Source: a virus
Lineage: Duplodnaviria; Caudoviricetes
DNA: 64,000 nucleotides
Strand: one strand, 5' to 3'
Virus record (IMG/VR): IMGVR_UViG_3300025838_000023
Span: 42,783 to 106,782 of that record
The notes below the pieces were generated by a model, which was not told the DNA's origin, did not search any database, and saw only the letters and a program-made list of their open reading frames with translations. Position numbers and translations under genes: made by a program. How positions within the stretch are numbered: position 1 is the stretch's first letter; every line of letters begins with the position of its first letter. Positions 27,982-43,090 of this stretch are shown piece by piece.

Positions 27982-29223
27982 CTATTTTCTATTCTTGATA
28001 TCAGATAAAAGTTCTTCCAGAACCAAATTTAAGTTTTTAATTCCTAAATTCCCCTTTCCATGCACTCGCAAACCAACATTTTCATCTTCTACATCTCTAT
28101 CTCCAATTACTAACATAGTATGAGATTTTTCTTGTTCTGCCTTTCGTATCTTATTTTTAATGTTATCATTCGACAAATCAGATTTAACTCTAATACCACT
28201 ATACAATAATTTCATTTTAATAAATTCTGCATATTTCAGAACAGACTCGGTATTTTTAACCGTCATAATATTAATTTGTATTGGGGAAAGCCATAACGGA
28301 AAATTGCCATTATAATGTTCAATAAGAAATCCTATAAATCTTTCATGTGTACCCAATGGAGCACGATGAATACATAAAGGAGTTTCCTCAGTGTTATTTT
28401 CAGTTTTATATTTTAAATTGAATCTAGCAGGAACAGCAAAATCTATTTGGTTTGTGGCAAGAGTGAATTCTTTTCCTGCCGTTGACCAAACTTGAACATC
28501 AATTTTAGGACCATAAAATGCAGCTTCATTAGGAACTTCAACAAAATTAATACCACTTTTAATTAAAGCATTACGTAACATATCCTCGGTTTTCTTCCAT
28601 AATTCAGGAGAGTCTACAAATTTCTGGCCGAGTTTAGATGAGTCGTGAGTAGAAAACCGCATTAAATATTTTTCAATACCAAAGATTTTAAAATATTTGA
28701 GATACATTTCATTAACTGCATTGAATTCTTTTTCAAATTGATCTTCGGTACAATAAATATGTGCATCATTCATTTGCATACTTCTTACTCGCATTAATCC
28801 AAAAAGTTCTCCTGATTGTTCATAACGATAACAAGTCCCATATTCAGCAAGTCGTAAAGGTAAATCACGGTAGCTTCGAGGAGATGAACCAAATATTTTA
28901 TGATGATGTGGGCAGTTCATTGCTTTGAGATAATATTTCTCAATATTCCCACTCTCGCTTTCCATATTCATAAAAGGAAACATCCTATCCTCATAATATG
29001 GAAGATGCCCGCTTGTCAGATATAAATTTTCTCTAGCAATATGAGGGGTACGTACTCTATCATATCCCGCAAGAAATTCAGTTTCTTTTGCCAGTTTTTC
29101 AAGTTCTTCAATTAAAACCGTTCCACTTGGCAACCAAAGCGGAAGTCCTGCCCCCACATCATCATCAAAACAAAACAGTTTCAAAGTTTTCCCTATTTCC
29201 CTATGATCATTTATCTCTACCAT
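27982..29223 (-). CDS. thrS: threonyl-tRNA synthetase (catalytic and anticodon-binding domains only)
   Basis: DHREIG, KAMNCPHH, YRYEQSGELFGLMRVR, DAHI, AFYGPKID, IHRAPLGTHERF. Confidence 0.95.
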   Translation of the reverse strand: MVEINDHREIGKTLKLFCFDDDVGAGLPLWLPSGTVLIEELEKLAKETEFLAGYDRVRTPHIARENLYLTSGHLPYYEDRMFPFMNMESESGNIEKYYLKAMNCPHHHKIFGSSPRSYRDLPLRLAEYGTCYRYEQSGELFGLMRVRSMQMNDAHIYCTEDQFEKEFNAVNEMYLKYFKIFGIEKYLMRFSTHDSSKLGQKFVDSPELWKKTEDMLRNALIKSGINFVEVPNEAAFYGPKIDVQVWSTAGKEFTLATNQIDFAVPARFNLKYKTENNTEETPLCIHRAPLGTHERFIGFLIEHYNGNFPLWLSPIQINIMTVKNTESVLKYAEFIKMKLLYSGIRVKSDLSNDNIKNKIRKAEQEKSHTMLVIGDRDVEDENVGLRVHGKGNLGIKNLNLVLEELLSDIKNRK

Positions 29224-31456: not shown

Positions 31457-31532
31457 TGGTGCTCACGATAGGTCTTGCACCTACACTGTCAACGTTCTCA
31501 ACGTTGTTTCTCTGCTTTTGGAATACGTAAGC
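31457..31532 (-). tRNA. tRNA-Leu(GAG), short V arm
   Basis: CAACG-TTGAGAA-CGTTG, ACCA. Confidence 0.8.
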
Positions 31533-31747
31533 ATATTATCAATTAGAGTTTTCTCTATTGTTTGAAATTCTACATTCCAAACAATCAAAAGTATCAAAAT
31601 TATTTCCTTTATTTGGTTCACTTTCCCAAGATATTTCATGGCCGCATTCTAAAGTAATAATATATCCTTCATGAAAAGATCGATACTTACTAACTCTTTT
31701 ATATCCAGCAATTGTCCAACAATCTATTTTTGTATTTTTCATAAATT

Positions 31748-31835
31748 TGGCGGAACGCTAAGGACTTGCACCCTAAACCATTTCTAGTTCCAATTGATTT
31801 CCAATCAATGTTCAACCTTGTTGAATTAACGTTCC
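31748..31835 (-). tRNA. tRNA-Ser(GGA)
   Basis: ATTGA-TTGGAAA-TCAAT, long V arm, GCCA. Confidence 0.8.
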
Positions 31836-32765
31836 ATTTAAATTTTTCTTCTCATATACTGGCAAAAACATTTGAGATTCTTCAAAACTCTTATGCACTA
31901 AAGAAATTCCATTTTTCACACTATCTTCAATATCCCTCATAAATGGTGTCTGCCCTTTCGTATCCTTATTACCAGTTATATCTAGATAAGAATATATTAA
32001 ATTTATTGCCATCTCTTCCAATGCATTAACGTTCATCTTCTCTAAATCATCAATAAGAGATAAACTATAACGAAAAATCTTATCATCAATAGTTATTTTT
32101 ATTCTCTCATCAATAACAAATAAGAAATCTGTAGGAAACCTTACAAATATTTTCTTATCAGGAAGAGATTTTTGTAATATTTCCTGAAGTTTTCTTTCAA
32201 ATTCAAATTGTTCAGATATTGTCATTTTATTCTTCGTCAAAAATATCTCCACCGTTTAAATATGCATCAACTTCTTCAACAATAACATTCCATATTTCAT
32301 CTTCCGCTTCCGCACCATGCATCTTTTTAATATCCTTAATCATCCCATTGTCCCATTCTACTGTCATTACTGCACCATCAACAGTAATAGCCCTACGCTG
32401 ATACTCCTTGTTTGATGTAGTATTCATGTTCTTCAATCCAAATACATGCCCTGGAAATTCTTCTCTCAATATCTCTAAAATTTTCATACTAGTATATTAT
32501 CACAAGGATTTGAATTATCAATATCATTTTCAGATAATTGTTTTCTAATTTCAGATATAAACAAATCTATAATATATTGTTCCATATTCAATCCATAATA
32601 AAATTTGGCATCATCCACCATATCCTCATTCCAAGAAATTTTCATCTTCCTGCCATCAATCATTAAATACTTTCTAGGTGCAAAATCATTAAGTTGAATT
32701 TCATATTCTTTCAACTCTATAACATGATCAGGAAAGTGGTTTCTTAATACTTCTAATATATCCAT
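31812..32765 (-). other. three small hypothetical ORFs; 32227..32487 and 32484..32765 are paralogs
   Basis: MKILEILREEFPGHV vs MDILEVLRNHFPDHV. Confidence 0.65.
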
Positions 32766-32803
32766 TACAATATTATATCAGAAATTATTAACTTGTCAAA
32801 ATT

Positions 32804-32879
32804 TGGTCCGGTATCTGAGTGCTGCCCTCAGTATCTCCTGATCCCAAGTCAGGCGGATTTGCTGTCTTCCTCATACCGG
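32804..32879 (-). tRNA. tRNA-Pro(TGG)
   Basis: CCTGA-CTTGGGA-TCAGG, ACCA. Confidence 0.85.
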
Positions 32880-32888
32880 ATATAAAAT

Positions 32889-32972
32889 TGGTGCGTAGGG
32901 AGAGAATTTGCACTCTCACAGAATTAACGGGTGTTTTACAGACACTTGGACTCACTCTTGTCCAGCCGACGC
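32889..32972 (-). tRNA. tRNA-Tyr(GTA)
   Basis: loop CT-GTA-AA; near-copy of 41506..41588. Confidence 0.75.
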
Positions 32973-32984
32973 AATAAAAATTAT

Positions 32985-33239
32985 AATCTTAGTAATAGCC
33001 GATTTTCTGTATCTAGTTTTCTCATTTGACTATGTAATATTACTATCACATCTCCCCGTTTATAGAGAAGCGCACCAACCCGAAGATTAAAACGATCAGC
33101 ACCAATCTATCTTCTGTTTGGCTTGCACCGTAACCATCGTGGTATTAACAAGTATTACTACTCTCCCATCGGTTCTGCTGTGGTGTATCGAACTTCCTCT
33201 GCAATCCTTTGAAAGGTGCAGCGAGAAACTGCCAAGATT
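32985..33239 (-). ncRNA. rnpB: minimal RNase P RNA (~255 nt)
   Basis: P1 AATCTTGG/CTAAGATT; CR-I GAGGAAGTTCG; GGTGCAAG; AGTCAAATG; CR-V ACAGAAAATCGGCTAT. Confidence 0.85.
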
Positions 33240-33245
33240 AAAGTT

Positions 33246-33321
33246 TGGAGCCTGTTGAAAGACTTGCACTTTCCATATTTGAATTACCGATTCAATACAT
33301 CGCTATCTATGTTTAACAGGC
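33246..33321 (-). tRNA. tRNA-Thr(GGT)
   Basis: TTGAA-TCGGTAA-TTCAA (C at position 33), TCCA. Confidence 0.75.
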
Positions 33322-33331
33322 GTTTAAAAAT

Positions 33332-33473
33332 TGGTAGTTCGTGACGGATTCGCACCCTCATGTGTCATAATTTATTCTATAGTTGAATAAACAACACCAA
33401 ACGCTTTTAGTCTACCATTTTATTGCAAGTTTACGTAATTTTGCAATGATTTCGTGACGTTTAAGCTACAACT
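33332..33473 (-). ncRNA. tRNA-ended RNA with an internal multi-hairpin domain
   Basis: AGTTGT/ACGAACT-ACCA, T arm GAGGG-TGCGAAT-CCGTC, GTCA/TGAC helix enclosing two hairpins. Confidence 0.5.
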
Positions 33474-33496
33474 TATTGGCATATATTATTAAAAAT

Positions 33497-33571
33497 TGGC
33501 CGCTGATAGATTATTTGCAAATCTCTCTATGGTGTTTCAAGCCATTACATTCCTACATATGTTAACCAGCG
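33497..33571 (-). tRNA. tRNA-Phe(GAA), divergent paralog overlapping the end of the endonuclease ORF
   Basis: D arm identical to 34403..34477; loop TT-GAA-AC. Confidence 0.6.
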
Positions 33572-34337
33572 ATAAAAAAGTTTCTTTAGAATCACATTTA
33601 AGGAGTTTCTTATAAATATCTTCTTTAATTATCTTAACTTTATTAATAGATTCAGGATTCTGTTCAAATACTAATTTCATTTTGTTTTCATCGTCTCCCC
33701 ACCAGTAACCTTTAATTTCTAAATAAAAATCATAATCAACTAAATGAAAATCTGGAGTATACGAATGTTCACACTCATCTTTAATATAAGAGAAAGTGTA
33801 ATTATTAGTCCCTATTTTCTTCCAAGAAATTTCCAATTCTTCCATTTTAAGTGCAATATTTCGTTCCCATGTTCCTTGAACTTTTTGACCACTTACTTCA
33901 TACCATTTACATCTTCCACCTTTATTTTTCACCGACATTATTTTACTTAACTTTTTCTTGGTTTCTAAAGTATGTTTATGATTTTTCCAATATGGGGTAT
34001 TTTCGGTATAAAACTTTTTAACAGACAAAGCATTTTGCATCACTCTAGAATCTGTTTCTTTTGATAACCCTTTATTCCAAGCTACATGAGTTCCTTTAGT
34101 AATTGAAACAAACCCTATACCATTTTCATGTTTTCTCCATATATGACTACCTATTCCTGATTTAGTTGTTGATTTGAATTCACATTTCGGACAAATATAG
34201 TATCCATCTATAAACATATCATCTGTTATTTTCCTATGAACTTTCTTATTAGGGTTATTACATGCCTTTTTATGTGCTTTGATATTCGAATTTGATATCA
34301 TTCTATTACAATAAGGGCATTCGGTTTTTTGTCTCAT
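33537..34337 (-). CDS. free-standing homing-type endonuclease (zinc fingers, NUMOD-like repeats, PD-(D/E)XK domain)
   Basis: CPYC..H, CPKC..H, AWNKG, HTLETKKK, YTPDF...LEIKG. Confidence 0.75.
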   Translation of the reverse strand: MRQKTECPYCNRMISNSNIKAHKKACNNPNKKVHRKITDDMFIDGYYICPKCEFKSTTKSGIGSHIWRKHENGIGFVSITKGTHVAWNKGLSKETDSRVMQNALSVKKFYTENTPYWKNHKHTLETKKKLSKIMSVKNKGGRCKWYEVSGQKVQGTWERNIALKMEELEISWKKIGTNNYTFSYIKDECEHSYTPDFHLVDYDFYLEIKGYWWGDDENKMKLVFEQNPESINKVKIIKEDIYKKLLKCDSKETFLSLVNICRNVMA

Positions 34338-34402
34338 ATAATATATTTAACACATTCATATGAAATAAGTCTAACTCTTATCTATTAAAGCTATATTCAA
34401 AT

Positions 34403-34477
34403 TGGTGGCTGGAGAGGTATTTGCAACCCCCTGTATGGATTTTCAGTCCACCACATTCCTACATATGTTATCCAGCC
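34403..34477 (-). tRNA. tRNA-Phe(GAA)
   Basis: GTGGA-CTGAAAA-TCCAT, ACCA. Confidence 0.85.
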
Positions 34478-34489
34478 ATTTTTAAATTG

Positions 34490-34765
34490 TTATATTTTAT
34501 TTTGCATATAATCAGGAAATTTTATTGCAATCCCCTCTCCTTCATTTTCTCCAATTTCCCATCCATAACTGCAATAACTACTAAAATGTGTCTTTTCTTT
34601 ATATCCTACTACATAATCTGTTGGCACGGTATGAGGAATATAAACAGTCACAAATTCCCCGTATCCACAATCTTTTTTAATCCCCACACAAGACATTCCA
34701 TCATGTTCAGTAATAAACATATCTTCCGCATTAAACTCAATTGTCATTTTTAATTCGTATTTCAT
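34490..34765 (-). CDS. hypothetical protein
   Basis: ORF with an upstream TTGACA-17-TATAAT-like promoter. Confidence 0.6.
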   Translation of the reverse strand: MKYELKMTIEFNAEDMFITEHDGMSCVGIKKDCGYGEFVTVYIPHTVPTDYVVGYKEKTHFSSYCSYGWEIGENEGEGIAIKFPDYMQNKI

Positions 34766-34812
34766 GTTGATATTATATTACAAAATTACATAATGTCAAT
34801 ATGATTTTAAAT

Positions 34813-34916
34813 TGGAGGGCTTCAACAGGAACTTACCCTGTTCGTATTGTAACATAATCAATCTCGATCTTTCGAAGATTCACTCAGTATGATTATGGTA
34901 TACTACAATTTCGCCC
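34813..34916 (-). ncRNA. tRNA-ended RNA with a long rod replacing the D and anticodon arms
   Basis: GGGC/GCCC-TCCA, T-like arm AACAGG-GTAAGTT-CCTGTT, rod ATTGTAG/TTACAAT plus CATAATCA/TGATTATG. Confidence 0.5.
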
Positions 34917-34924
34917 ATTTAAAT

Positions 34925-35105
34925 TGGTTCTAGAGGTTAGATTCACACTAACTTAGTCTTGTCGAAGGTTTTAATTTTTGACTACTTAAAGCTTCTATAA
35001 ATTATTTTCTCGTAGTATGCCATGATAATACTCTTTGGACGCAATACTCATAATTTACTTACAGCAACTCTAAATTATAGGCGGGTTGAAATGTGTCACT
35101 CAGAA
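34925..35105 (-). ncRNA. tRNA-ended RNA with a ~135-nt internal domain
   Basis: TTCTGAG/CTCTAGAA-CCA, T arm GTTAG-TGTGAAT-CTAAC. Confidence 0.45.
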
Positions 35106-35171
35106 CATTGCAATCTTCTCAAGCACCTTTTTATTGGCTAATCGAATTCGCCACGCCGATCTTGAAAATTA

Positions 35172-35523
35172 TGGTGGAGAGCAGGGAGGATCGAACTCCC
35201 TGTCCTAAAAAAACTTCATTTATATATCTACATGCTTATATTCTTTAATGTATTCGGTAGCATAACAAAGAATAAAACTTTCTACCATAGTTAAATTATT
35301 TTCTAGCATCCGTCTCACAAATATAACGAGAAACTCGACGGACTATCCTATGCAGCACGTTTTCAAATATAGGAGTCTTTGAAACGTGGATTAACTTAAG
35401 CAGCTAACGCTAGTTCTGTATTATCAGCACTTATCTTTTCGATTGATTTTTAAAGAAGCCAACAATCATCTTCTACATGCAACAATAAACTCGATCTTTT
35501 TAGTCGAATCCAAGTAGCTCCCC
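35172..35523 (-). ncRNA. ssrA: tmRNA, tag (A)ADNTELALAA*
   Basis: 5' GGGGAGC...GGATTCGAC; G3:U70; 3' GGGAGTTCGATCCTCCC-TGCTCTCCACCA; tag codons 35396-35428. Confidence 0.95.
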
Positions 35524-35528
35524 AAAAA

Positions 35529-35603
35529 TGGTAGGCATGGAAGAAATTGCATCCTCACCAAGAGCTTCGTAAACTCGTGTGCTATCTGTTACACTACACG
35601 CCC
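35529..35603 (-). tRNA. tRNA-Arg(ACG)
   Basis: loop TT-ACG-AA, ACCA. Confidence 0.8.
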
Positions 35604-35727
35604 ATTTAAAATTCTTCGCTAAAAATAATACCTACCAAGGCACTAAGGAATTGAACCATTTATTCTTAGCGAAAAGTAATTGTAATAAGTTCTAGAATAT
35701 TTCAATTACTTTCTTTTATATAAAATT

Positions 35728-35803
35728 TGGTAGGCATGGAGAGAATCCCACTCTCACCCTTCGGTTTCGAAGACCGATGCGCTAATAATTACGCTACACG
35801 CCC
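35728..35803 (-). tRNA. tRNA-Arg(TCG)
   Basis: TCGGT-CTTCGAA-ACCGA, ACCA. Confidence 0.85.
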
Positions 35804-35810
35804 ATAAATT

Positions 35811-35885
35811 TGGGGGTTTAGTTCGGTTACTCTCCGAATCCGGTAAATTCACAGTTTACAGTGCTAATATTACACCACAAAACCC
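35811..35885 (-). tRNA. tRNA-His(GTG)
   Basis: GTAAA-CTGTGAA-TTTAC; G-1 opposite C73. Confidence 0.85.
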
Positions 35886-35899
35886 ATCTAAAAACTTTT

Positions 35900-36042
35900 G
35901 GCATTGTATTTCCGCTATACGAAAAGCTAATATTCGTCATAACCACTACTCACAATCAGAAGATATCATTCCGATATTCTATAGTGGGGTTGGCTTATTT
36001 GATTCCCATTAACTTTAAAGGATTCGAACCTTTGATTCTGCC
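35900..36042 (-). ncRNA. circularly permuted tRNA-like RNA, unit 2
   Basis: order: GGCAG, T arm AAAGG-TTCGAAT-CCTTT, AAAGTTAAT...ATTAGCTTT acceptor-like helix, D arm GTAT-AGCGGAA-ATAC, ATGCC. Confidence 0.7.
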
Positions 36043-36168
36043 TTATTATCTAAATTCATCCAAAACTTACCGTAGTCGTATTGCAAATCCGAGCCTATGC
36101 AGTTTTGGCAGTATTATATGTTATGGAGTCCACGTTCCACTCCCGTAACCTTTATAATACTGAAATTT

Positions 36169-36316
36169 GATGCCCTGCTACCATTACACCACAGATACCA
36201 CAAATCGTCATAACCAGCTACTATATCATATGATCATCTCTGATACTTCGTAGTGGGGTAGGCTTACTTGATTCATTGTTTATATACATGAACGGACTCG
36301 AACCGTTTCTTTCACC
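36169..36316 (-). ncRNA. circularly permuted tRNA-like RNA, unit 1
   Basis: order: GGTGA, T arm AACGG-TTCGAGT-CCGTT, CATGTAT...GTATCTG, D-like GTGTAATGGTAGCAG, GCATC; shares the cap motif with unit 2. Confidence 0.62.
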
Positions 36317-36336
36317 TTACATTCTTAAAAAATTAC

Positions 36337-36423
36337 CGGATGGCTGATATCCCGCCTACCATGCCCTTTTAGAGCACCATCGATTTAGCAAATCGCGCTA
36401 GTCACTCGACTAGTTAACCATCC
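36337..36423 (-). tRNA. tRNA-Ser(GCT), degenerate T arm, no encoded CCA
   Basis: loop TT-GCT-AA, V arm TGCTCT-AAA-AGGGCA. Confidence 0.55.
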
Positions 36424-36573
36424 ATATTAAAAAATTCTGAGTAAATATCAATCTCCCATAGGAGACAAATGTTATAGCTTTATTACATTAAGATTTGTTG
36501 TTACCATAAAAGCAATACTCTCACAACTCTAATCCGATTATTACTCAACGTTATCCGCTAAGATAACGAAAAT

Positions 36574-36660
36574 TGGAGTGTAGTTAGGGGATCGCACCCT
36601 ACGTAGGCTTTCGCCCAACTGGTTTGCAAGCAGCAAAGTTCACTAGCTCTCTCACTACAC
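36574..36660 (-). tRNA. tRNA-Cys(GCA) with long V arm
   Basis: acceptor GTGTAGT/ACTACAC, U73-CCA, loop TT-GCA-AA, V arm TGGGC-GAAA-GCCTA. Confidence 0.7.
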
Positions 36661-36735
36661 ATTAAAAGTGACCCGCTAATATTTTACAACCATATGCAGG
36701 GCTGGTTGGATATGATTACTACCATATCAAAATTA

Positions 36736-37011
36736 TTACCATGTTACATTTCCATCTTTAATCCATCCATGAAACTTACAACTACTATCTGGAAAATCAC
36801 AGTTAATAGAAGGAGTTACTGATAGATTTGAAATGTCTCCAGATTTATTCCAAACTGCTCCAGAATCATAAATAGGCGGCAATTCAAAATTAACTAAAAT
36901 AGAATGTCCAGAATCGCATTTCGGACAAACAAATCTTAATACTTTATCCGATCTTTCATTGTATCGAATCATCTCACCTTCTAGTTTCTCTAATGATACT
37001 AAATTACTCAT
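36736..37011 (-). CDS. small Cys/His protein, DUF6527-like
   Basis: F.CP.C...H, W...G...LSVTPSI...C.FHGWI.DG. Confidence 0.7.
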   Translation of the reverse strand: MSNLVSLEKLEGEMIRYNERSDKVLRFVCPKCDSGHSILVNFELPPIYDSGAVWNKSGDISNLSVTPSINCDFPDSSCKFHGWIKDGNVTW

Positions 37012-37154
37012 ACTATTATTTAGCAAACTTTTAATCCTTATAAATTCATATCAAAGATAAAACTTCATAAATATTAAAACCATTGCTAATAGATAAATAA
37101 CTATATGAATAAAGATACCATACTTCTAGAAGAATTATATATGAAAATCGTAGA

Positions 37155-37522
37155 AGAGTTATCATAAGCATAGAAGAATATTACTATTTTCTAGATTTAT
37201 GCCTTAAAGACTTTTTATTCTATTTTATAGGATTTAAAAGGAAATCTATAACTCAATTTAGATTTCTTTAATTTGGAATATAACGTTTCTATGAACCAAT
37301 TTTAGTATTTGATCTACCATTTTCTTCCAATGAGTAGGTAGAATACTAAAACCAATTCAAAGATATTTTATATCCATTTTATCATCTTTCAATGATAAAA
37401 ATTGTTTTATTATAATAGTATTTATTCTACTTTATATCAAAATCAAGAGATAAATAATTTAAATTGTATAATATTTTTAACTTATCTTAAAAATGTTATA
37501 TTATGTATTAAGTTTTATTAGA
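37155..37522 (-). mobile_element. MITE family A copy 2
   Basis: near-identical to 20635..21019 with small indels; AGA/TCT core at both junctions. Confidence 0.9.
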
Positions 37523-37864
37523 CCAATTCGGAAATGCTACTCTCATATGGCTAGAAAAAGATGGAACAGTTTATGATACAGAAGAAACCCAACATGGAAT
37601 CTACGTAGCGGATAATGCCTCTTTATTTGGCGTGAATTATAACTTCGCAAAAAAGACTTTCGATAAATATGGAGACGAAGGAATTGATGAAGCAGCAGCA
37701 ATAATGTGTGAACAAGCCTTCAAAAAAGGTTGGATGCGTGTTGTTAAAGTGCCTTGGAATAAAAAGATTTTCGTCGAAGGAAACGAACCAACAAAAGCAC
37801 AAAAACATGTAATCGAAGATTGGTATTTCGAAGATACTAGTTGGGATGTCATTTGGCAAAGATG

Positions 37865-39097
37865 GGTTGGTAACAGTAGTTTGAAATTCTAAAAAATCTA
37901 AAGTTATAAAAATAATTCATTATTATGGGTTAAATTACAAGAAAAGTAAAACACATTTAGATAAATATAAATGTGAAGATAATAAGAGCAGTTAAATGCA
38001 CAAACAAATTTGCTACTAAAAAGAAGCAAGATGTTCTTACATCTTTACTTGCCGAATACGGCAATGTTGTAAATTTCTTCATTGAATTCTTTTGGTTAAA
38101 AGATAAACTTCCAACTAAGAACGATCTTTTAAAACATATAGTTGATCTACCAATACAAACAACTTGGCTTTCAGCCAGATTACGTAAAACTGCTGCTAGA
38201 GAAGCTATAGATATGATCTTAGCAGTAAAAGAAAGATGGAAAGATAAACCAGATAAAATAAATAAACCAACACACCAAGGTAAAAGAATGTGCTGTTCTT
38301 CAACAATAGCAGAACTCCAAAACTCAAAATCTTCATTCGATAAATACCTTAAAATAGGTTCTGTTGGTAAGAAAATTAAACTAGAAATACCAATCAAAAA
38401 ACATAAACAGTTTAATTATTGGGAACGTCAAGGCAGACGCCTTAACTCATATATTATAACTAAAGACTATACTCAGTTCGTTTTCGAAATCGAAACTGGA
38501 ACTAAAAAGGATCAAGGTAAAACAATTGGTATTGATACTGGTATTAAATGTCTAGCAACTCTGTCCAATGGACAAAGAATAGGAGACAAAATAGAAGATA
38601 TAATAATTAAAATCAATAGATGCAAACATGGTTCTAAAAGACAAAAGCAATTAAGGAATTATCTACGTCATTATATTGATACTAGTGCAAAAGAAGTTTT
38701 TAAGCAGAATCCTAATTTGAGTAGGATTATAGTCGAAAGACTAAGTAATATGAATTTTAAATCGAAGATTAAGCGTAAGCTTGGTCGTAAGATGAGAAAA
38801 ACTATCGGTAGTTGGAACTACAGATATTGGCTATCTAGAATGGAAAGAAACTGTGAGGAGAACCGTGTTCGATATTCCAGTATAAATCCAGCTTATACGA
38901 GTCAATGCTGTAACCAATGTGGTCATACTGACAGGATGAATCGATCAAAACAAGATACTTTTTATTGTGTTAAATGTGGTCATACTGACCATGCTGACCA
39001 TAATGCAGCTAAGAATATTTTGGATCGTGGAATCTCCCTAGTTTATCGTCGGGGGTAATAGTTTAAATTTTAGATTTTTTAGAATTTAAACAACGGT
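37865..39097 (+). mobile_element. tnpB-only element (IS607-like) with perfect 19-bp subterminal inverted repeats
   Basis: AAATTCTAAAAAATCTAAA 37884-37902 and its complement 39069-39087; GGT at both junctions; left end ambiguous by 4 nt. Confidence 0.75.
37973..39058 (+). CDS. tnpB: TnpB with zinc ribbon
   Basis: IGIDTG, IVERL, PAYTSQCCNQCG, CVKCG, HADHNAAKNI. Confidence 0.92.
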   Translation: MKIIRAVKCTNKFATKKKQDVLTSLLAEYGNVVNFFIEFFWLKDKLPTKNDLLKHIVDLPIQTTWLSARLRKTAAREAIDMILAVKERWKDKPDKINKPTHQGKRMCCSSTIAELQNSKSSFDKYLKIGSVGKKIKLEIPIKKHKQFNYWERQGRRLNSYIITKDYTQFVFEIETGTKKDQGKTIGIDTGIKCLATLSNGQRIGDKIEDIIIKINRCKHGSKRQKQLRNYLRHYIDTSAKEVFKQNPNLSRIIVERLSNMNFKSKIKRKLGRKMRKTIGSWNYRYWLSRMERNCEENRVRYSSINPAYTSQCCNQCGHTDRMNRSKQDTFYCVKCGHTDHADHNAAKNILDRGISLVYRRG

Positions 39098-39155
39098 CAG
39101 TAATCAATTCGGACCACCAAAACCAATCACTCTGTTCAACGCAGAATAAAAAAAT

Positions 39156-39246
39156 TGGCGGAAGACTGAGGAGTTGCGCCCCAAACCTTTTAGAGTTCCT
39201 TCTGTTTTCAAGGCAGAGTCAGTATCGCTTGTCTGATTAATCTTCC
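39156..39246 (-). tRNA. tRNA-Ser(TGA)
   Basis: loop CT-TGA-AA, long V arm, GCCA. Confidence 0.8.
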
Positions 39247-39263
39247 ATAATAAAATTTAAAAT

Positions 39264-39337
39264 TGGTAGGAGATAAAAGTGCCGCCCTTTTGACTCATGG
39301 ATGTAAACCAAGCATTATACTGTTTAACTAATCTCCC
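39264..39337 (-). tRNA. tRNA-Val(TAC)
   Basis: loop TT-TAC-AT, ACCA. Confidence 0.8.
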
Positions 39338-39348
39338 ATTACTAAATT

Positions 39349-39424
39349 TGGAAGACCCACCCCGATTTGCACGGAAGGACGATGAAGTTCAAAGCTTCAT
39401 ATGCTACTTTTACATCATGGGTCT
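39349..39424 (-). tRNA. tRNA-Gln(TTG)
   Basis: TGAAG-CTTTGAA-CTTCA, TCCA. Confidence 0.85.
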
Positions 39425-39434
39425 ATTAAAATCT

Positions 39435-39521
39435 TAGAAGTGTACGGTAATGCTCCGTATCGAGGCCCCAATCTAGGACAAAAAGTTTATAAAACTTTCT
39501 TGGCTACTTAGCCACACTTCC
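39435..39521 (-). tRNA. atypical tRNA-Ile(TAT), long V arm, no encoded CCA
   Basis: AAAGT-TTTATAA-ACTTT, T arm TACGG/CCGTA. Confidence 0.65.
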
Positions 39522-39530
39522 ATTTAAAAT

Positions 39531-39608
39531 TGGTTGCGGAAGGGCCGAACTCGAATCGGGCAGTTTTAGCTTATGAGACTAACGTGTTTACCTTGACACT
39601 ACCCCGCA
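39531..39608 (-). tRNA. tRNA-Met(CAT)
   Basis: TTAGT-CTCATAA-GCTAA, ACCA. Confidence 0.8.
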
Positions 39609-39617
39609 ATATAAATC

Positions 39618-39694
39618 TGTAAACCCCATCATGGAATCGCACCACAATTCTGTCTTTCAGAGAGACTCGTAATAACTGTTATACGAATGGGGTA
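39618..39694 (-). tRNA. tRNA-Gln(CTG)
   Basis: loop CT-CTG-AA; 3' end is not CCA. Confidence 0.65.
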
Positions 39695-39701
39695 TAAAAA
39701 C

Positions 39702-39812
39702 TTGCGGAGATGGGATTCAAACACCATCATAGCATATTAATCATTTTGCGAACAATTAATACTATTTGCCAGAGTTATGAGCACTGTTAGCCTCTCAGGG
39801 CTTGTCTCCGCT
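39702..39812 (-). tRNA. tRNA(CAT) with a ~40-nt variable hairpin
   Basis: GCGGAG/CTCCGC acceptor, loop CT-CAT-AA, V hairpin ATAGTATTAATTG...TGATTAATATGCTAT. Confidence 0.6.
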
Positions 39813-39832
39813 ATTTAAAAACTTTAAAAATT

Positions 39833-39918
39833 TGGTAGCAGAAAAGAGAATTGCACTCTTACAGTCTTACGACAATTGCTTATGAAACAATCCCCACACT
39901 AATACGGGTTGCTCTGCC
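39833..39918 (-). tRNA. tRNA(CAT), Met or Ile2, long V arm
   Basis: ATTGT-TTCATAA-GCAAT, ACCA. Confidence 0.7.
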
Positions 39919-40035
39919 ATTTTTCAAAAATTGTAACCTTTACTAAAATTTTGGCACAATGCCTATGCTTAGTTAATAATACAAACTTCGAAAACTTGTA
40001 TTTAAAACTCTTACATAACATCATATTAAAAAATT

Positions 40036-40111
40036 TGGTGGACCGTAAGGGATTCGCACCCTTCACACAAATATTGCAAGTATTCATCGCCCCTGTGGAA
40101 CATGACAGCCC
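40036..40111 (-). tRNA. tRNA-Ala(TGC)
   Basis: G3:U70, loop CT-TGC-AA. Confidence 0.8.
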
Positions 40112-40194
40112 ATATTAAAAATTTGTTGTAGTATCGAGAATCTACTACATTTATCTTCCGAATTTAACGGACGAATCTCGTCGTTTAAAGAAAT

Positions 40195-40274
40195 TGGTGG
40201 AGAATATCGGCATCGAACCGATCTGAAAATTTCTGATTGCAAATCAGACGATCACCCAAGCAATCCCATCCCCC
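40195..40274 (-). tRNA. tRNA-Ala(TGC)
   Basis: TCTGA-TTTGCAA-TCAGA, ACCA. Confidence 0.8.
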
Positions 40275-40284
40275 ATATAAAAAT

Positions 40285-40377
40285 TGGCACCAAGACTAGG
40301 ACTCGCACCTAGATACCGTTCAAGACGGATTACACGAAGGTAACAACTTCGCCACTTACTAGTTAGTGTATCTTGGT
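40285..40377 (-). tRNA. tRNA-Asn(GTT) with long V arm
   Basis: CGAAG-TTGTTAC-CTTCG, V arm CCGT/ACGG, G73-CCA. Confidence 0.7.
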
Positions 40378-40384
40378 ATAAAAT

Positions 40385-40459
40385 TGGCTCCAACGCTAGG
40401 TTCTGCCCCTAGACCGTCTCGCTTAACAGGCGAATGGACTACTGTTATCCCACGTTGGA
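40385..40459 (-). tRNA. tRNA-Asn(GTT)
   Basis: TTCGC-CTGTTAA-GCGAG, GCCA. Confidence 0.85.
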
Positions 40460-40467
40460 ATTTAAAT

Positions 40468-40543
40468 TGGCACCGTTGACAGGACTCGCACCCGCTAAAA
40501 ACAGCTTGAAAAACTGCTCACTCGACTCTTTGTATTCAACGGC
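40468..40543 (-). tRNA. tRNA-Glu(TTC)
   Basis: GCAGT-TTTTCAA-GCTGT, GCCA. Confidence 0.75.
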
Positions 40544-40607
40544 ATAAAATTTGATCATAAATGTATATTTGCACCCACATTTTAATATAAATTGATTAAA
40601 TATAAAT

Positions 40608-41354
40608 ATGAAGGTTCAATTCAAACATACAGAAGAATCAAAAGCAAACTTAAGTATAAAACGGAAAGAATGGCTTAAAAATAATCCTGATAAACATCCT
40701 TGGAAACGTCATGATAAATTTAAATCAAAACCATGCGAAAACGCAAAACAGTTTTTGAGAGATAATAATATTCCATTCATTGAAGAATATACTCCAGAAA
40801 ATATAGATAGAAATTATTCTATTGATATTGCATTACCTGATAAAATGATTTCTTTGGAGATAAACGGTAATCAACATTATAATCGAGACGGAACATTAAA
40901 ACCTTATTATCAGGAAAGACAAGATATATTAGAAAAAGCTGGATGGATAGTATACCAAATACATTATTCTGCATGTTTTAATCTTGATAAGTGGAAAGAT
41001 TTTTTTAATATACTTAAATATGCTGTGGTTAAAGTCGATTTCGATTATTTTACATATGTTCCTAAGAAATTAGAAAGAAAAACACTACATGATAAATGTG
41101 GTTGTGGTAATAAAAAACTTATTAAGTCTAAAAATTGTTTTATATGTAATAATAAAATGCCTAAAATATATAAAAGAAAAACTGTTAGACCAACAAAAGA
41201 ATTACTTACAAAATTAATATGGGAAAAACCATTAACTAAAATAGGAAAAGATTTTAATGTAACCGATAATGCTATAAGAAAATGGTGTAAATTATATAAC
41301 ATAACAGAATTTCCAAAACGTGGATATTGGCTGAAATCTAAATTGGTAAACTAG
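40608..41354 (+). CDS. free-standing homing-type endonuclease (NUMOD3, Vsr/DUF559-like nuclease, zinc finger, HTH)
   Basis: HTEESKANLS, YSIDIA...LEINGNQHY, GW.V..I, IGKDFNVTDNAIRKWCK. Confidence 0.75.
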   Translation: MKVQFKHTEESKANLSIKRKEWLKNNPDKHPWKRHDKFKSKPCENAKQFLRDNNIPFIEEYTPENIDRNYSIDIALPDKMISLEINGNQHYNRDGTLKPYYQERQDILEKAGWIVYQIHYSACFNLDKWKDFFNILKYAVVKVDFDYFTYVPKKLERKTLHDKCGCGNKKLIKSKNCFICNNKMPKIYKRKTVRPTKELLTKLIWEKPLTKIGKDFNVTDNAIRKWCKLYNITEFPKRGYWLKSKLVN

Positions 41355-41425
41355 ATGGGACTTGCACCCCACATGTTTTCTAATTACTCTTTCACCTGTT
41401 TAGAAGACAGAGGAGATACTAGTTT
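41344..41425 (-). tRNA. atypical tRNA-Arg(TCT), D arm absent
   Basis: CTGT-CTTCTAA-ACAG, extended V region, ACCA. Confidence 0.65.
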
Positions 41426-41428
41426 GTT

Positions 41429-41496
41429 TGGAGCCGTATAGGATATTGCAATCCTCCTGCTATATTACGAGTATAGGCTGTGTGCTTACATACGGC
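41429..41496 (-). tRNA. tRNA-Thr(CGT), reduced D arm
   Basis: CTATA-CTCGTAA-TATAG; identical to 43269..43336 except position 34. Confidence 0.75.
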
Positions 41497-41505
41497 ATAG
41501 AAAAT

Positions 41506-41588
41506 TGGTGCGTAGGAGAAGAATTTGCACTTCCACAGATTAACGGGTGTTTTACAGACACTTGGACGCACTCTTGTCCATCCTACGC
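41506..41588 (-). tRNA. tRNA-Tyr(GTA)
   Basis: loop CT-GTA-AA, ACCA. Confidence 0.8.
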
Positions 41589-41601
41589 ATAATTAAATTC
41601 C

Positions 41602-41674
41602 CGGTATGGACGAGTGCTGCCCTCGCTTAAACTTGATTGACAATCAAGTATCGATGCTGTTCGAACTCCATACC
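41602..41674 (-). tRNA. tRNA-Asp(GTC), no encoded CCA
   Basis: CTTGA-TTGTCAA-TCAAG, G73. Confidence 0.75.
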
Positions 41675-41748
41675 ATTAAAAATTGGTCAAGTTATGTAGA
41701 TTGCCTCCACTACTAAGGTTTACTTGCACGACCTAGCTATATTTAAAT

Positions 41749-41822
41749 TGGCGCGACATAGGGGTTACGCTCCCCTGACTCCTCTTGGACAGAGAGATAG
41801 GTTACTATTACTTCAATGTCGC
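41749..41822 (-). tRNA. tRNA-Asp(GTC)
   Basis: TCTCT-CTGTCCA-AGAGG, GCCA. Confidence 0.85.
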
Positions 41823-41831
41823 ATTTAAAAT

Positions 41832-41907
41832 TGGTAGCCTCAGATGGATTTTCACCATCTTCTAAAGGTTGAGAACCTATGATCCTGTGTCATTAGACGA
41901 TGAGGCC
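41832..41907 (-). tRNA. tRNA-Glu(CTC)
   Basis: loop TT-CTC-AA, ACCA. Confidence 0.8.
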
Positions 41908-41915
41908 ATTTAAAT

Positions 41916-41991
41916 TGGTCGGATACCAGAGAATCGCACTCTGTCACCCCACTTCCAAGGCGGGTAAGCACACTTGCGCTATTCGTATCCG
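41916..41991 (-). tRNA. tRNA-Pro(TGG)
   Basis: CCCGC-CTTGGAA-GTGGG, ACCA. Confidence 0.8.
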
Positions 41992-42000
41992 TTATAAAAT

Positions 42001-42681
42001 TGGTTTTCGTTGCAGCTTTCGACTCTGCTATAGTAGCTACAAATGCGATGTGCTAATGCTACCGTGTTTCCCATGCAATGCCTCTCATATACCCTTTATG
42101 GTATTGTCACTGATTTATTATAAGTGCCTGTCTAGCCTTTCTACTAGCTCACGTTTTTTATGGTTAGCCCATCGCATTGTTACACTTTATCTTCTATCAG
42201 CGTTTTACATATACTATCTATTACCCACATATACTATACAGTTAGACAAAACATCAATTTTTATATTTTTAAATGGGCAGGGACTGTAAGCTCCTACCAA
42301 CCATAGAAGAAAGTGAATAACTTGGTGTTTATTCCGATCAACGAATACGGTTATGGATGCATAATACGGGTCTTCGGGTATTTCATAGGGTTACATACCT
42401 TTTCCGATTCGGCTATACATACACTGGTTAATTACAGTAATAAAACAATTTAATTTTCTGATAACCTATCTTACGATTAAACCTTTAGATTCTATCTTAT
42501 TTTATACCTTATCTTCCTCTTTTATTTTTGTTTCGAATATTAAAATAACCCCTCTCTTCTAATACTCTGTTCTTATTTAATCATAAATAATTTTTAAATC
42601 AACTACTATTTGCATTTAATTCATATCATTCCTTTATAAAAATGTATATTATATGCGACTAGTCGCTAACACTAAACGAAA
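42001..42681 (-). ncRNA. ~250-nt tRNA-ended structured RNA split near its 5' end by MITE B
   Basis: acceptor TTTCGTT/AACGAAA-ACCA, helix TATAGTA/TACTATA, T-like arm GCAG...CTGC, internal 15-nt long-range pairing. Confidence 0.6.
42238..42671 (-). mobile_element. MITE family B copy 2 (434 bp)
   Basis: near-identical to 23226..23659, same length, TGT core. Confidence 0.85.
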
Positions 42682-42685
42682 TTGT

Positions 42686-42769
42686 TGGCACGGAAATGAG
42701 GTAACGCTCCCCTTAGTATGAATACGCTAGTTTTGGAGACTAGATGCAATCCTTCTTGCGAGTTTCCGT
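42686..42769 (-). tRNA. tRNA-Trp(CCA), extended V region
   Basis: CTAGT-CTCCAAA-ACTAG, GCCA. Confidence 0.8.
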
Positions 42770-42778
42770 ATGATAAAT

Positions 42779-42871
42779 TGTTACAACGGGTGGGCTTCGC
42801 TCCCACGGTGAGGCTTGTAACCTGTCGGATTAAAAGTCCGATACTTTCGACTGGACTAAGTGAACCGTTGC
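42779..42871 (-). tRNA. tRNA-Lys(TTT) with long V arm
   Basis: TCGGA-CTTTTAA-TCCGA, V arm AGGTT-ACA-AGCCT; 3' ACA. Confidence 0.7.
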
Positions 42872-42879
42872 ATTAAAAG

Positions 42880-42954
42880 TGGTGGGGTCACGGGGACTTG
42901 CACCCCGACTTAACGATTTAAAAGACCGTTGTGCAGCTATTACACCATAACCCC
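42880..42954 (-). tRNA. tRNA-Lys(TTT)
   Basis: ACGGT-CTTTTAA-ATCGT, ACCA. Confidence 0.85.
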
Positions 42955-42966
42955 ATTATAAAAATT

Positions 42967-43045
42967 TGGTGGAATCGGAGGTAGTTGCAACCTCACGAAT
43001 GGTCTAGTTAAGAGCTAGTTGCCCGTCTACTGTAGCTTCGATTCC
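42967..43045 (-). tRNA. tRNA-Lys(CTT)
   Basis: CTAG-CTCTTAA-CTAG, ACCA. Confidence 0.8.
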
Positions 43046-43090
43046 TTTTGTGTCGTTATTTTTCTATGGTTGAAAAAATAACACTAAAAT

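What the first reader, a model, noticed from the sequence alone, without database searches (positions are those of the whole stretch)
35900..36316. Two tandem circularly permuted tRNA-like RNAs whose acceptor stems are capped by a conserved ~80-nt domain
Seen (minus strand): each unit runs anticodon-stem 3' strand, canonical T arm (GGTTCGA.TCC), acceptor 3' strand, insert, acceptor 5' strand, D arm, anticodon-stem 5' strand. The halves pair within a unit (AAAGTTAAT/ATTAGCTTT; GGCA/TGCC) and not between units. The inserts share GAATCAA(G/A)TAAGCC(T/A)ACCCCACTA...AGTAG(C)TGGTTATGACGA, while the tRNA-like parts differ. These are among the few array members with a textbook T loop. Established: T-acceptor-D order occurs in bacterial YrlA Y RNAs and in permuted tRNA genes of some algae and archaea. 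No Ro60 gene is in this window. Inference: an anticodon-less tRNA-elbow mimic (decoy for host tRNA-targeting defences) or a scaffold that releases the cap RNA after RNase P cleavage.
Basis: partly seen in the sequence, partly recalled or inferred. Interest (0 to 1): 0.85.

Follow-up and report, generated by a model that had tools for sequence, protein, structure and literature searches.

The report
Two capped inside-out tRNA mimics
In the tRNA gene cluster of an uncultured T4-like lake phage sit two small RNA genes that each fold like a tRNA turned inside out (no anticodon loop, normal ends sealed by a conserved 70-base hairpin); the fold is well supported, one copies an alanine tRNA, but no relatives or transcripts could be found and the job is unknown.

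Summary
On the minus strand, unit 1 (36316-36169) and unit 2 (36042-35900) each run anticodon-stem 3' strand, textbook T arm, acceptor 3' strand, 70-72-nt insert, acceptor 5' strand, D arm, anticodon-stem 5' strand.

- **tRNA test:** rejoined in normal order with a dummy anticodon loop, both are called tRNAs by ARAGORN at default settings. Cross-unit chimeras are not, and shuffled 5' halves almost never are.
- **Covariation:** a model built from unit 2 alone finds unit 1 (42.6 bits). Eight base pairs changed on both sides between the units, and 95% of cells stay paired.
- **Insert:** its two end blocks are 85-89% identical, while the acceptor strands are about 25% identical.
- **Unit 2:** it is 75% identical to a T4-like phage tRNA-Ala(UGC) and keeps G3:U70 and A73.

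The topology is that of YrlA Y RNAs, but this is not a YrlA member. There is no Rfam hit, no Ro60 gene, no Ro-binding motif, and a large conserved cap replaces the short loop.

No homologue turned up in viral, metagenome or genome collections. Function is inferred only: most likely a capped tRNA-shaped scaffold or decoy. This scan has noted other permuted tRNA mimics in phage tRNA arrays on other DNA.

The parts
36169..36316 (-). Unit 1, a permuted anticodon-less tRNA-like module. Parts in order: GGTG 36316-36313; variable AAAGA; T arm 36307-36291; acceptor 3' strand 36290-36284 plus A73 at 36283; linker; cap 36274-36205; TTTGTG; acceptor 5' strand 36198-36192; TG; D arm 36189-36175; G; GCATC 36173-36169.
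   Evidence: Sequence. ARAGORN on the re-permuted halves. Model R1, built from unit 2 only: 42.6 bits, E about 1e-9. Pair counts.
35900..36042 (-). Unit 2, a permuted anticodon-less tRNA-Ala-like module. Parts in order: GGCAG 36042-36038; variable AATC; T arm 36033-36017; acceptor 3' strand 36016-36010 plus A73 at 36009; TGG; cap 36005-35934; ATAT; acceptor 5' strand 35929-35923 with G3:U70; TC; D arm 35920-35906; A; ATGCC 35904-35900.
   Evidence: Sequence. ARAGORN re-permutation. 48/64 identity to tRNA-Ala(UGC) of Vibrio phage CZ01, against 36/64 or less for 40 other phage tRNAs.
36205..36274 (-). Cap of unit 1 (70 nt). It has a 5' block GAATCAAGTAAGCCTACCCCACTA, a variable apical hairpin and a 3' block AGTAGCTGGTTATGACGA. 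Predicted stem: CCACTAC/GTAG(C)TGG.
   Evidence: The stems are invariant between the units, so there is no covariation for or against them.
35934..36005 (-). Cap of unit 2 (72 nt). It has a 5' block GAATCAAATAAGCCAACCCCACTA, a variable apical hairpin and a 3' block AGTAGTGGTTATGACGA. Predicted stem: CCACTAT/GTAGTGG.
36109..36162 (-). Long hairpin between the units, with an outer stem CAGTATTATA...TATAATACTG. It is a possible processing site; that role is inferred.
   Evidence: Sequence and the fold of 35886-36335.
36060..36108 (-). Second inter-unit hairpin, CCAAAACT...AGTTTTGG. Its 3' strand could instead pair with CCAAAA just after unit 2 (35901-35896).
36317..36336 (-). Leader of unit 1 (GGTAATTTTTTAAGAATGTAA). 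It is homologous to the leader of unit 2 at 36043-36071 (GGTAAGTTTTGG...ATAATAA).
   Evidence: Alignment of the units with their flanks.

Best explanation
These are two paralogous, functional small RNA modules, co-transcribed with the phage's minus-strand tRNA operon. Each folds into an L-shaped tRNA body. That body has a canonical T-loop/D-loop elbow, a 7-bp acceptor helix stacked on the T arm, a D arm and a 4-5-bp anticodon stem.

The chain ends lie at the anticodon stem and there is no anticodon loop. The acceptor end is sealed by an irregular hairpin of about 70 nt whose two basal strands are nearly invariant. This is the topology of YrlA-type Y RNAs.

The most likely working mode (inferred) is a capped tRNA mimic. 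The tRNA-shaped body is the part recognised by a tRNA-binding protein or enzyme. The conserved cap is a second binding or effector module, and it also blocks normal 5'/3' maturation and aminoacylation.

The two units carry different acceptor and anticodon stems (unit 2 copies tRNA-Ala), so they may imitate two different tRNAs.

Shown: the sequence anatomy, the tRNA-like fold and the covariation between copies. Inferred: transcription, stability, the partner, and whether the RNA acts as a decoy or as a scaffold.
For: - **Fold:** ARAGORN calls both re-permuted units tRNAs at its default threshold. Chimeras and shuffles fail.
- **Tertiary-contact bases, read from the sequence:** unit 2 has U8, A14, G15 with C48, the D-loop GG and TTCGAAT. 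Unit 1 has the D-loop GG and TTCGAGT.
- **Model search:** a model from unit 2 alone scores unit 1 at 42.6 bits. The next hit in 16 kb scores 21.5 bits.
- **Pair counts:** 95% of cells are paired and 8 pairs changed on both sides, spread over the anticodon, T, acceptor, extension and D helices. Slid controls give 35-49% paired and 0-1 double changes.
- **Uneven divergence:** cap blocks are 22/26 and 16/18 identical and the T arm 14/17. The acceptor strands are 4/15 and 3/12 identical yet still complementary. Uniform decay after a duplication does not predict this.
- **Not coding:** no reading frame of 40 codons or more covers both units on either strand.
- **Contrast with the array:** both units keep the canonical elbow, while 14 of 16 ordinary tRNAs have non-TTCGA T loops, mostly without the D-loop GG. 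15 of 16 tRNAs encode CCA and the units do not.
- **Setting:** same strand and position as the operon, with tRNA-His starting 15 nt after unit 2.
- **Precedent:** YrlA RNAs have the same T-acceptor-D order and are bound and modified like tRNAs (PMC4201824).
Against: - There are only two copies, in one record, so the covariation rests on one paralogue pair. The alignment was also fitted to a structure taken from unit 2 (caveat).
- No homologue was found in the phage, viral, metagenome or genome collections or in five distant relatives.
- Thermodynamic folding gives no support. The z-scores are -1.8 and -0.2, and for unit 1 the cloverleaf-type fold is 12 kcal/mol above the minimum.
- The cap helices never vary, so the cap structure is only a prediction.
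- No transcript data and no candidate partner. Ro60, RtcB and Rnl1 are absent from a record that is only 49% complete.
Confidence: 0.45

Rival explanations
1. Processing cassette. The tRNA body recruits RNase P, which cuts at the cap/acceptor 5' junction. A 3' tRNA-processing nuclease (RNase Z type, or exonucleases) trims after A73, and the phage CCA-adding enzyme adds CCA. This would free the cap RNA of about 75-85 nt. It would also leave a two-piece, anticodon-less, CCA-tailed acceptor/T/D body. Unit 2, with G3:U70 and A73, could then be charged by AlaRS.
For: - Both units have a 7-bp acceptor helix directly stacked on a 5-bp T stem.
- The M. smegmatis YrlA, with a 7-bp acceptor, is cut by RNase P in vitro, and is cleaved and CCA-tailed in vivo (PMC4201824).
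- The record encodes a CCA-adding enzyme at 59718-61235, although 15 of 16 ordinary tRNAs already encode CCA.
- Unit 2 keeps G3:U70 and A73 and is 75% identical to a phage tRNA-Ala.
- The best-conserved cap bases lie next to the two predicted cut sites.
Against: - The acceptor helix continues beyond position 1:72 (3 further pairs in unit 2, a 4-bp helix after a bulge in unit 1). From established knowledge of RNase P substrates, that is unfavourable for cleavage.
- There is no CCA or RCCA after position 73.
- No RNase P RNA was found in the neighbouring 32700-35200 stretch by Rfam at E <= 1, so host RNase P would have to act.
- No end-mapping data exist.
Confidence: 0.25
2. Non-functional debris. 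Tandemly duplicated tRNA genes plus their spacer lost the outer halves by deletion in a region full of mobile elements. What remains is 3' half, spacer, 5' half, and these still pair only because they descend from one tRNA.
For: - The array holds TnpB elements, MITEs and homing-endonuclease genes (notes).
- The leader of unit 2 still gives a 21-bit partial tRNA match in normal order (36009-36069).
- 8-mer repeats (TGCCAAAA) flank a 200-nt stretch that includes unit 2.
- No homologues were found anywhere.
Against: - It needs two events with the same break points at both anticodon-stem edges, or one event followed by divergence.
- In the second case the acceptor strands, now about 25% identical, would not have stayed complementary without selection.
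- The cap blocks are far better conserved than the tRNA parts.
- Both units keep all the elbow bases, while the working tRNAs around them have changed theirs.
Confidence: 0.15
3. True circularly permuted tRNA genes, as in Cyanidioschyzon and Thermofilum. The transcript ends would be joined to restore an anticodon loop, and the cap removed as an intervening sequence, giving decoding tRNAs.
For: - The gene order is 3' half, intervening sequence, 5' half.
- An Rnl2-type RNA ligase is encoded in the record.
Against: - The flanks offer no 7-nt loop with U33 and a purine at 37. After TGCC comes AAAAGTT and before GGCA comes ATAATAA; after CATC comes AAATTTC.
- There is no bulge-helix-bulge motif, and bacteria lack the splicing endonuclease (established knowledge).
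- No RtcB or Rnl1 is present.
Confidence: 0.03
4. One RNA of about 430 nt that belongs to the undescribed 'double tRNA-mimic RNA' noted elsewhere in this scan. That RNA is a 370-490-nt transcript with two permuted tRNA look-alikes, usually behind a DUF7873 gene and sometimes inside phage tRNA clusters.
For: - Same layout and size: two tandem permuted, anticodon-less modules within about 420 nt in a phage tRNA cluster (AI notes, which are leads only).
Against: - No DUF7873 hit appears among the 25 families shown for 46 frames of 180-346 aa, each with E below 3e-4.
- No track of hexamer repeats.
- The acceptor ends here carry a 70-nt conserved cap, not a loop.
- No shared words with any earlier noted stretch.
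- I had no example sequence to compare.
Confidence: 0.1

Closest known systems
YrlA Y RNAs (Rfam RF02553; Chen et al. 2014, PMC4201824), partners of bacterial and mycobacteriophage Ro60/Rsr
   Same: - Order: T arm, closed acceptor-like helix, D arm.
- Chain ends lie at the stem that replaces the anticodon arm, and there is no anticodon loop.
- tRNA tertiary bases are kept.
- Also found in phages. The M. smegmatis form has a 7-bp acceptor, as here.
   Different: - No RF02553 match at E <= 10.
- No TROVE/Ro60 gene in the record.
- No GNCGAAN0-1G motif or long basal Ro-binding stem.
- The acceptor is closed by a conserved 70-72-nt domain instead of a short loop.
- Two tandem paralogues with different acceptor stems.
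Circularly permuted tRNA genes of Cyanidioschyzon merolae, some green algae and Thermofilum pendens (own knowledge; reviewed in PMC3400036 and PMC4238349, listed, not read)
   Same: - The 3' half lies upstream of the 5' half.
- An intervening sequence joins the acceptor strands, and RNase P and a 3' nuclease can remove it.
   Different: Those genes restore a full anticodon loop by circularisation at a bulge-helix-bulge motif and yield decoding tRNAs. Here there is no loop, no such motif, and a much longer conserved insert.
Two-piece (circularly permuted) tmRNA genes of alpha-proteobacteria and cyanobacteria (own knowledge)
   Same: - Permutation at the acceptor end, with an excised intervening segment.
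- A tRNA-Ala-like body without an anticodon arm. Unit 2 has G3:U70 and A73.
   Different: - No tag reading frame or pseudoknots, and ARAGORN's tmRNA search calls nothing here.
- Unit 1 lacks G3:U70.
- A standard one-piece tmRNA lies 380 nt downstream (35172-35523).
Phage T4 species 1 and species 2 stable RNAs (rnaC, rnaD) of the T4 tRNA cluster (own knowledge)
   Same: Small stable RNAs of unknown role, encoded among the tRNA genes of a T4-type phage and matured by tRNA-processing enzymes.
   Different: - Those are not permuted and end like tRNAs.
- No sequence similarity was seen in the phage collection search.

Membership tests
YrlA (RF02553) | Match to the Rfam covariance model at or above 69 bits | tested here: not met
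   No match even at E <= 10 in 35500-36700 or in the whole record.
YrlA (RF02553) | T arm, acceptor-like stem-loop and D arm in that order, with RNA ends at the basal stem | tested here: met
YrlA (RF02553) | Encoded near a Ro60/Rsr (TROVE) gene | tested here: not met
   No PF05731 match at E <= 1 in the 106.8-kb record. The control genomes did match. The record is 49% complete, so a distant gene cannot be excluded.
YrlA (RF02553) | GNCGAAN0-1G Ro-binding motif in the 5' strand of the basal stem (PMC4201824) | tested here: not met
   Neither leader has the motif, and no GNCGAANG lies in 35886-36336. The only GACGA(A/T) sits in the cap 3' block, on the acceptor side.
Circularly permuted tRNA genes | 3' half upstream of the 5' half, and the two halves complementary | tested here: met
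Circularly permuted tRNA genes | Flanks rebuild a 7-nt anticodon loop and a processing (bulge-helix-bulge) motif | tested here: not met
   Read from the flanks: no U33/R37 loop can be formed. ARAGORN needed an artificial loop.
Two-piece tmRNA | Tag reading frame with resume codon and pseudoknots, detected by ARAGORN's tmRNA search | tested here: not met
   ARAGORN -m reports only the standard tmRNA at 35172-35523.
Two-piece tmRNA | G3:U70 alanine identity pair | tested here: inconclusive
   Present in unit 2 (G at 35927, T at 36012). Absent in unit 1, which has A3-U70.
'Double tRNA-mimic RNA beside DUF7873' (unpublished AI notes of this scan) | Adjacent DUF7873 protein gene | tested here: not met
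   Pfam scan of 46 frames of 180-346 aa from the whole record. DUF7873 is not among the 25 best of 29 families, and the four not shown have E above 3e-4. The nearest upstream gene is a 96-aa DUF6527 protein.
'Double tRNA-mimic RNA beside DUF7873' (unpublished AI notes of this scan) | Sequence or structure homology to known members | not testable with these tools
   No member sequence or model was available. Word look-ups found nothing alike.

The most novel reading that the evidence does not exclude
The units are the phage's only RNAs that still show the host-type tRNA elbow, and they exist to be taken for tRNAs. There are two versions of this reading.

- **Sponge.** They act as capped decoys that soak up a factor reading canonical tRNA bodies, such as a host T-loop or acceptor-stem nuclease, or a phage enzyme that attacks host tRNAs. 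The phage's own roughly 45 tRNAs would escape that factor through remodelled elbows.
Probability: 0.12. Interest if true: 0.85.

Novelty: new variant of a known kind. Interest (0 to 1): 0.55.

Why it matters
Permuted tRNA mimics are known so far as YrlA Y RNAs tied to Ro60. This pair has three unusual features.

- It has no Ro60 and no Ro-binding stem.
- It carries a large conserved domain on the acceptor end.
- It sits in a phage whose real tRNAs have given up the canonical T-loop/D-loop elbow that the mimics keep.

If the units are expressed, they are a compact natural test of what a tRNA shape without an anticodon is used for during infection. Candidate uses are decoy, scaffold, processing signal or non-decoding aminoacyl carrier. 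They would also help explain why this phage rebuilt its own tRNAs. The claim rests on two copies in one metagenomic record, so its weight is limited until relatives or transcripts are seen.

Tried and rejected
- **Rfam:** gathering and E <= 10 scans gave only a 21-bit partial tRNA and a 23-bit snoR28 chance match. YrlA gave nothing in the whole record.
- **Thermodynamic folding:** single units and the 450-nt stretch gave no significant z-scores. RNAalifold on a MAFFT alignment of the caps was uninformative because the variable parts misalign.
- **Homologue searches, all negative or chance:**
  - phage collection BLAST;
  - Viral contigs patterns;
  - a metagenome pattern, 13 chance hits;
  - a genome contigs pattern, 2 chance hits.
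- **Distant relatives:** found through the 62857-63999 protein. They gave no BLAST hit, no descriptor hit and no hit to model R2. The aaRS gene as anchor gave no viral relative. Its phage-collection hits are unrelated ThrRS genes.
- **Unannotated matches to the T arm of unit 2:** in Vibrio, Synechococcus and Microcystis phages these proved to be ordinary tRNAs.
- **Relaxed descriptor:** without the T-loop rule it is no better than shuffles, so no further permuted modules can be claimed.
- **Short peptide in the cap:** the cap 5' block reads N-Q-V/I-S-L/Q-P-H-Y in both units. Unit 2 has no start codon, and the block differences are not at third positions, so I rejected this.
- **Handle motifs:** ACAGCAA and GNCGAANG do not occur near the units.
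- **DUF7873:** I could not obtain its Pfam accession.

Full report
**Setting.** The window is the last 64 kb of a 106,782-bp IMG/VR virus record that CheckV rates 49% complete. The record is about 31% G+C. It carries T4-type structural genes, a GroEL, a CCA-adding enzyme (59718-61235) and a truncated class II aaRS. From about 35.1 to 44 kb the minus strand is a tRNA array that ends in a one-piece tmRNA at 35172-35523. The finding lies between a tRNA-Ser-like unit (36423-36337) and tRNA-His (35884-35811).

**The observation.** The sequence is as described. The two insert blocks, GAATCAARTAAGCCWACCCCACTA and GGTTATGACGA, each occur exactly twice in the whole record, both on the minus strand.

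In tRNA numbering, unit 2 (36042-35900) reads:
- GGCAG (39-43), AATC (variable), AAAGG-TTCGAAT-CCTTT (T arm);
- AAAGTTA (66-72), A73, TGG;
- a 72-nt cap, then ATAT;
- TAGCTTT (1-7), TC, GTAT-AGCGGAA-ATAC (D arm), A26, ATGCC (27-31).

Unit 1 (36316-36169) reads:
- GGTGA, AAGA, AACGG-TTCGAGT-CCGTT;
- CATGTAT, A73, TAAACAAT;
- a 70-nt cap, then TTTGTG;
- GTATCTG, TG, GTGT-AATGGTA-GCAG, G, GCATC.

Unit 2 has U8, A14, G15 with C48, the D-loop GG and the T-loop TTCGA, which is the full set of elbow contacts. Unit 1 has the GG and TTCGA.

**Is it more than chance?** I tested this three ways.

1. *Re-permutation.* I joined each 5' half to its 3' half through an artificial 7-nt loop and added CCA.
   - ARAGORN at its default threshold calls a 74-nt cloverleaf tRNA for both units.
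   - It calls neither cross-unit chimera.
   - It of 500 (unit 2) and 3 of 500 (unit 1) constructs with a shuffled 5' half.
2. *Descriptor scan.* A descriptor of the permuted layout finds exactly these two places in the record on both strands. It finds none in 20 shuffled genomes. The descriptor was written after seeing the units, so this measures rarity, not discovery.
3. *Covariance model.* A model built from unit 2 alone, with a hand-drawn structure, scores unit 1 at 42.6 bits (E about 1e-9). The next hit in 16 kb scores 21.5 bits.
   - On the resulting alignment, 95% of cells form standard pairs.
   - Eight pairs changed on both sides: anticodon stem 2, T stem 1, acceptor 2, acceptor extension 2, D stem 1.
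   - With the 3' partners slid by 1-3 columns, 35-49% pair and there are 0-1 double changes.
   - Caveats: there are two sequences only, and the alignment is fitted to the structure.

Nearest-neighbour folding does not help. The z-scores are -1.8 and -0.2, and the cloverleaf-type fold of unit 1 lies 12 kcal/mol above its minimum. This is common for A+U-rich tRNAs, but it counts against.

**Uneven divergence between the units.**

| Segment | Identical positions |
|---|---|
| T arm | 14/17 |
| Cap 5' block | 22/26 |
| Cap 3' block | 16/18 |
| Apical part of the cap | 16/31 |
| D arm | 9/17 |
| Acceptor strands | 4/15 and 3/12 |

The acceptor strands are at random-level identity yet complementary within each unit. 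Uniform decay after a duplication does not give this pattern. It fits selection on the cap ends, together with acceptor and anticodon helices that changed identity while staying paired.

**Unit 2 copies a tRNA-Ala.** A BLAST of unit 2 hit an unannotated but ordinary tRNA-Ala(UGC) in Vibrio phage CZ01, a member of the Straboviridae. Re-permuted unit 2 is 48/64 identical to it. Forty other phage tRNAs score 36/64 or less. Unit 2 keeps G3:U70 and A73. Unit 1 has no clear model, with best scores of 37/64. Neither unit resembles the phage's own tRNAs.

**Contrast with the array.**
- Of 16 ordinary tRNAs, 15 encode CCA followed by A(A)TTT. The units have no CCA.
- Only 2 of 16 have a TTCGA T loop, and both of those also have the D-loop GG. 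Most others carry T loops such as TGCAAAT and no GG.

So the two units are among the few RNAs here that keep the canonical elbow.

**The cap.** RNAfold predicts a 7-bp stem, CCACTAY/GTAG(C)TGG, and a variable apical hairpin. With the tRNA helices enforced, it adds a short TCA/TGA helix near the acceptor. All of these pairs are invariant between the units, so nothing tests them.

Nothing else in the record resembles the cap. Rfam has no match. A reading-frame explanation fails: no frame of 40 codons or more covers both units, and a 12-residue similarity in one frame lacks a start codon in unit 2.

**Surroundings.** A sigma-70-like site (36451-36424) precedes the tRNA-Ser-like unit, but such sites are no more frequent here than in shuffles. 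Two strong hairpins fill the 126 nt between the units, at 36162-36109 and 36108-36060. The leaders of the two units are homologous (GGTAAKTTTT...TAAGG) and both trailers start CAAA. Each unit may therefore be nearer 180 nt, with a weak A-U basal pairing.

**Partners and enzymes.**
- No TROVE/Ro60, RtcB or T4 Rnl1 was found. One Rnl2-type ligase is present.
- No DUF7873 appears among the 25 families shown for 46 frames of 180-346 aa.
- The nearest upstream gene is a 96-aa DUF6527 protein. Its only match in 5.8 billion proteins is itself, seen on 13 contigs.
- Rfam finds no RNase P RNA in 32700-35200 at E <= 1.

**Relatives.** None could be found. Pattern scans gave only chance matches: viral contigs, metagenomes and one genome per prokaryotic species. 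The phage collection has nothing beyond T-arm matches to ordinary tRNAs. Five distant relatives lack the units. Records very near this one are withheld by the tools.

**What it is.** The topology is that of YrlA Y RNAs: T arm, closed acceptor-like helix, D arm, with the ends at the basal stem (PMC4201824). Membership fails on every other defining feature:
- no model match;
- no Ro60;
- no GNCGAAN0-1G motif;
- a conserved 70-nt domain where YrlA has a loop.

It is not a true permuted tRNA gene, because the flanks cannot rebuild an anticodon loop. It is not a two-piece tmRNA.

Earlier notes of this scan describe many permuted tRNA mimics in phage tRNA arrays on other DNA. One is a 370-490-nt 'double mimic' RNA next to DUF7873 genes. 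The layout here is similar, but the partner gene and the hexamer repeats are absent. I had no member sequence to compare, so that link is open.

**How it most likely works.** I favour a capped tRNA mimic (0.45). The canonical tRNA body is the recognised surface. The conserved cap is a second binding or effector module that also keeps the acceptor end closed. The two units imitate different tRNAs.

The main rival (0.25) is a processing cassette. RNase P and a 3' nuclease would excise the cap, and the phage CCA-adding enzyme would finish a two-piece, anticodon-less body. For unit 2 that body could accept alanine. The M. smegmatis YrlA precedent, cut by RNase P and CCA-tailed in vivo, makes this feasible. 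The paired extension beyond 1:72 argues against it.

Debris from rearranged tRNA genes (0.15) is hard to square with the complementary but unrelated acceptor strands and the conserved cap.

All functional steps are inferred. Only the anatomy, the tRNA-likeness and the between-copy covariation are shown.

**Verdict.** This is a real and unusual pair of RNA modules, and a new variant of the permuted tRNA-mimic kind. It is supported by internal evidence only. Interest is moderate to high for RNA and phage specialists, held back by the lack of relatives, transcripts and a partner.

Noticed in passing
window 31460-43968, minus strand (16 tRNAs listed): Most ordinary tRNAs of the array have non-canonical T loops (TGCAAAT, TGCGAGT, AGCAAAG, TGGGATT and others) and lack the D-loop GG. 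Only the two with TTCGA (43898-43968 and 40198-40274) pair a canonical T loop with the GG. Several D loops carry GC where the T loop has GC at 55-56, which hints at a rebuilt elbow. 15 of 16 encode CCA followed by A(A)TTT.
   Followed up: partly
window 36337-36423, minus strand: A tRNA-Ser(GCU)-like unit with a 7-bp acceptor, a D arm, an anticodon arm and a long variable arm. Only about 15 nt lie where the T arm should be. Neither ARAGORN nor Rfam calls it. A sigma-70-like site (TTGATA-16-TAATAT, 36451-36424) sits just upstream.
   Followed up: no
window 36109-36162, minus strand: A long hairpin between the two units, with an outer 10-bp stem CAGTATTATA/TATAATACTG and inner GTTA/TAAC and GGAGT/ACTCC stems. 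It could be an RNase III-type processing site.
   Followed up: no
window 35903-35896 and 36110-36103; 36054-36048 and 35892-35886: TGCCAAAA and TTTAGAT each occur once before and once after unit 2. The trailer of unit 2 therefore looks like a condensed copy of its leader region. About this many 8-mer repeats are expected by chance in such A+T-rich sequence.
   Followed up: partly
window 27982-29223, minus strand: A 413-aa class II aminoacyl-tRNA synthetase (core plus anticodon-binding domain). It is closest to ThrRS genes (37-43% identity) and lacks the N-terminal domains.
   Followed up: partly
Rfam gives no match of any family in this stretch at E <= 1.
   Followed up: partly
window 36736-37026, minus strand: A 96-aa DUF6527 protein with Cys pairs, encoded inside the tRNA array 420 nt upstream of unit 1. 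In 5.8 billion proteins it matches only itself, seen on 13 contigs.
   Followed up: partly
G000:C1:28235-28684 (outside the window), and 46 frames scanned: The record encodes an Rnl2-type RNA ligase with a PHA02142 OB-fold. It also encodes an Acb3-like CBASS inhibitor (E 7e-36), R2K ATP-grasp proteins and a resolvase.
   Followed up: no
L134:1410-1530 (Synechococcus phage BUCT-ZZ01, ON615601.1): An unannotated tRNA-like gene (GGGGAGT...ACTCCCCGCCA) with about 45 extra bases between the D arm and the T arm. ARAGORN without intron search does not call it. It may be an intron-bearing tRNA.
   Followed up: no
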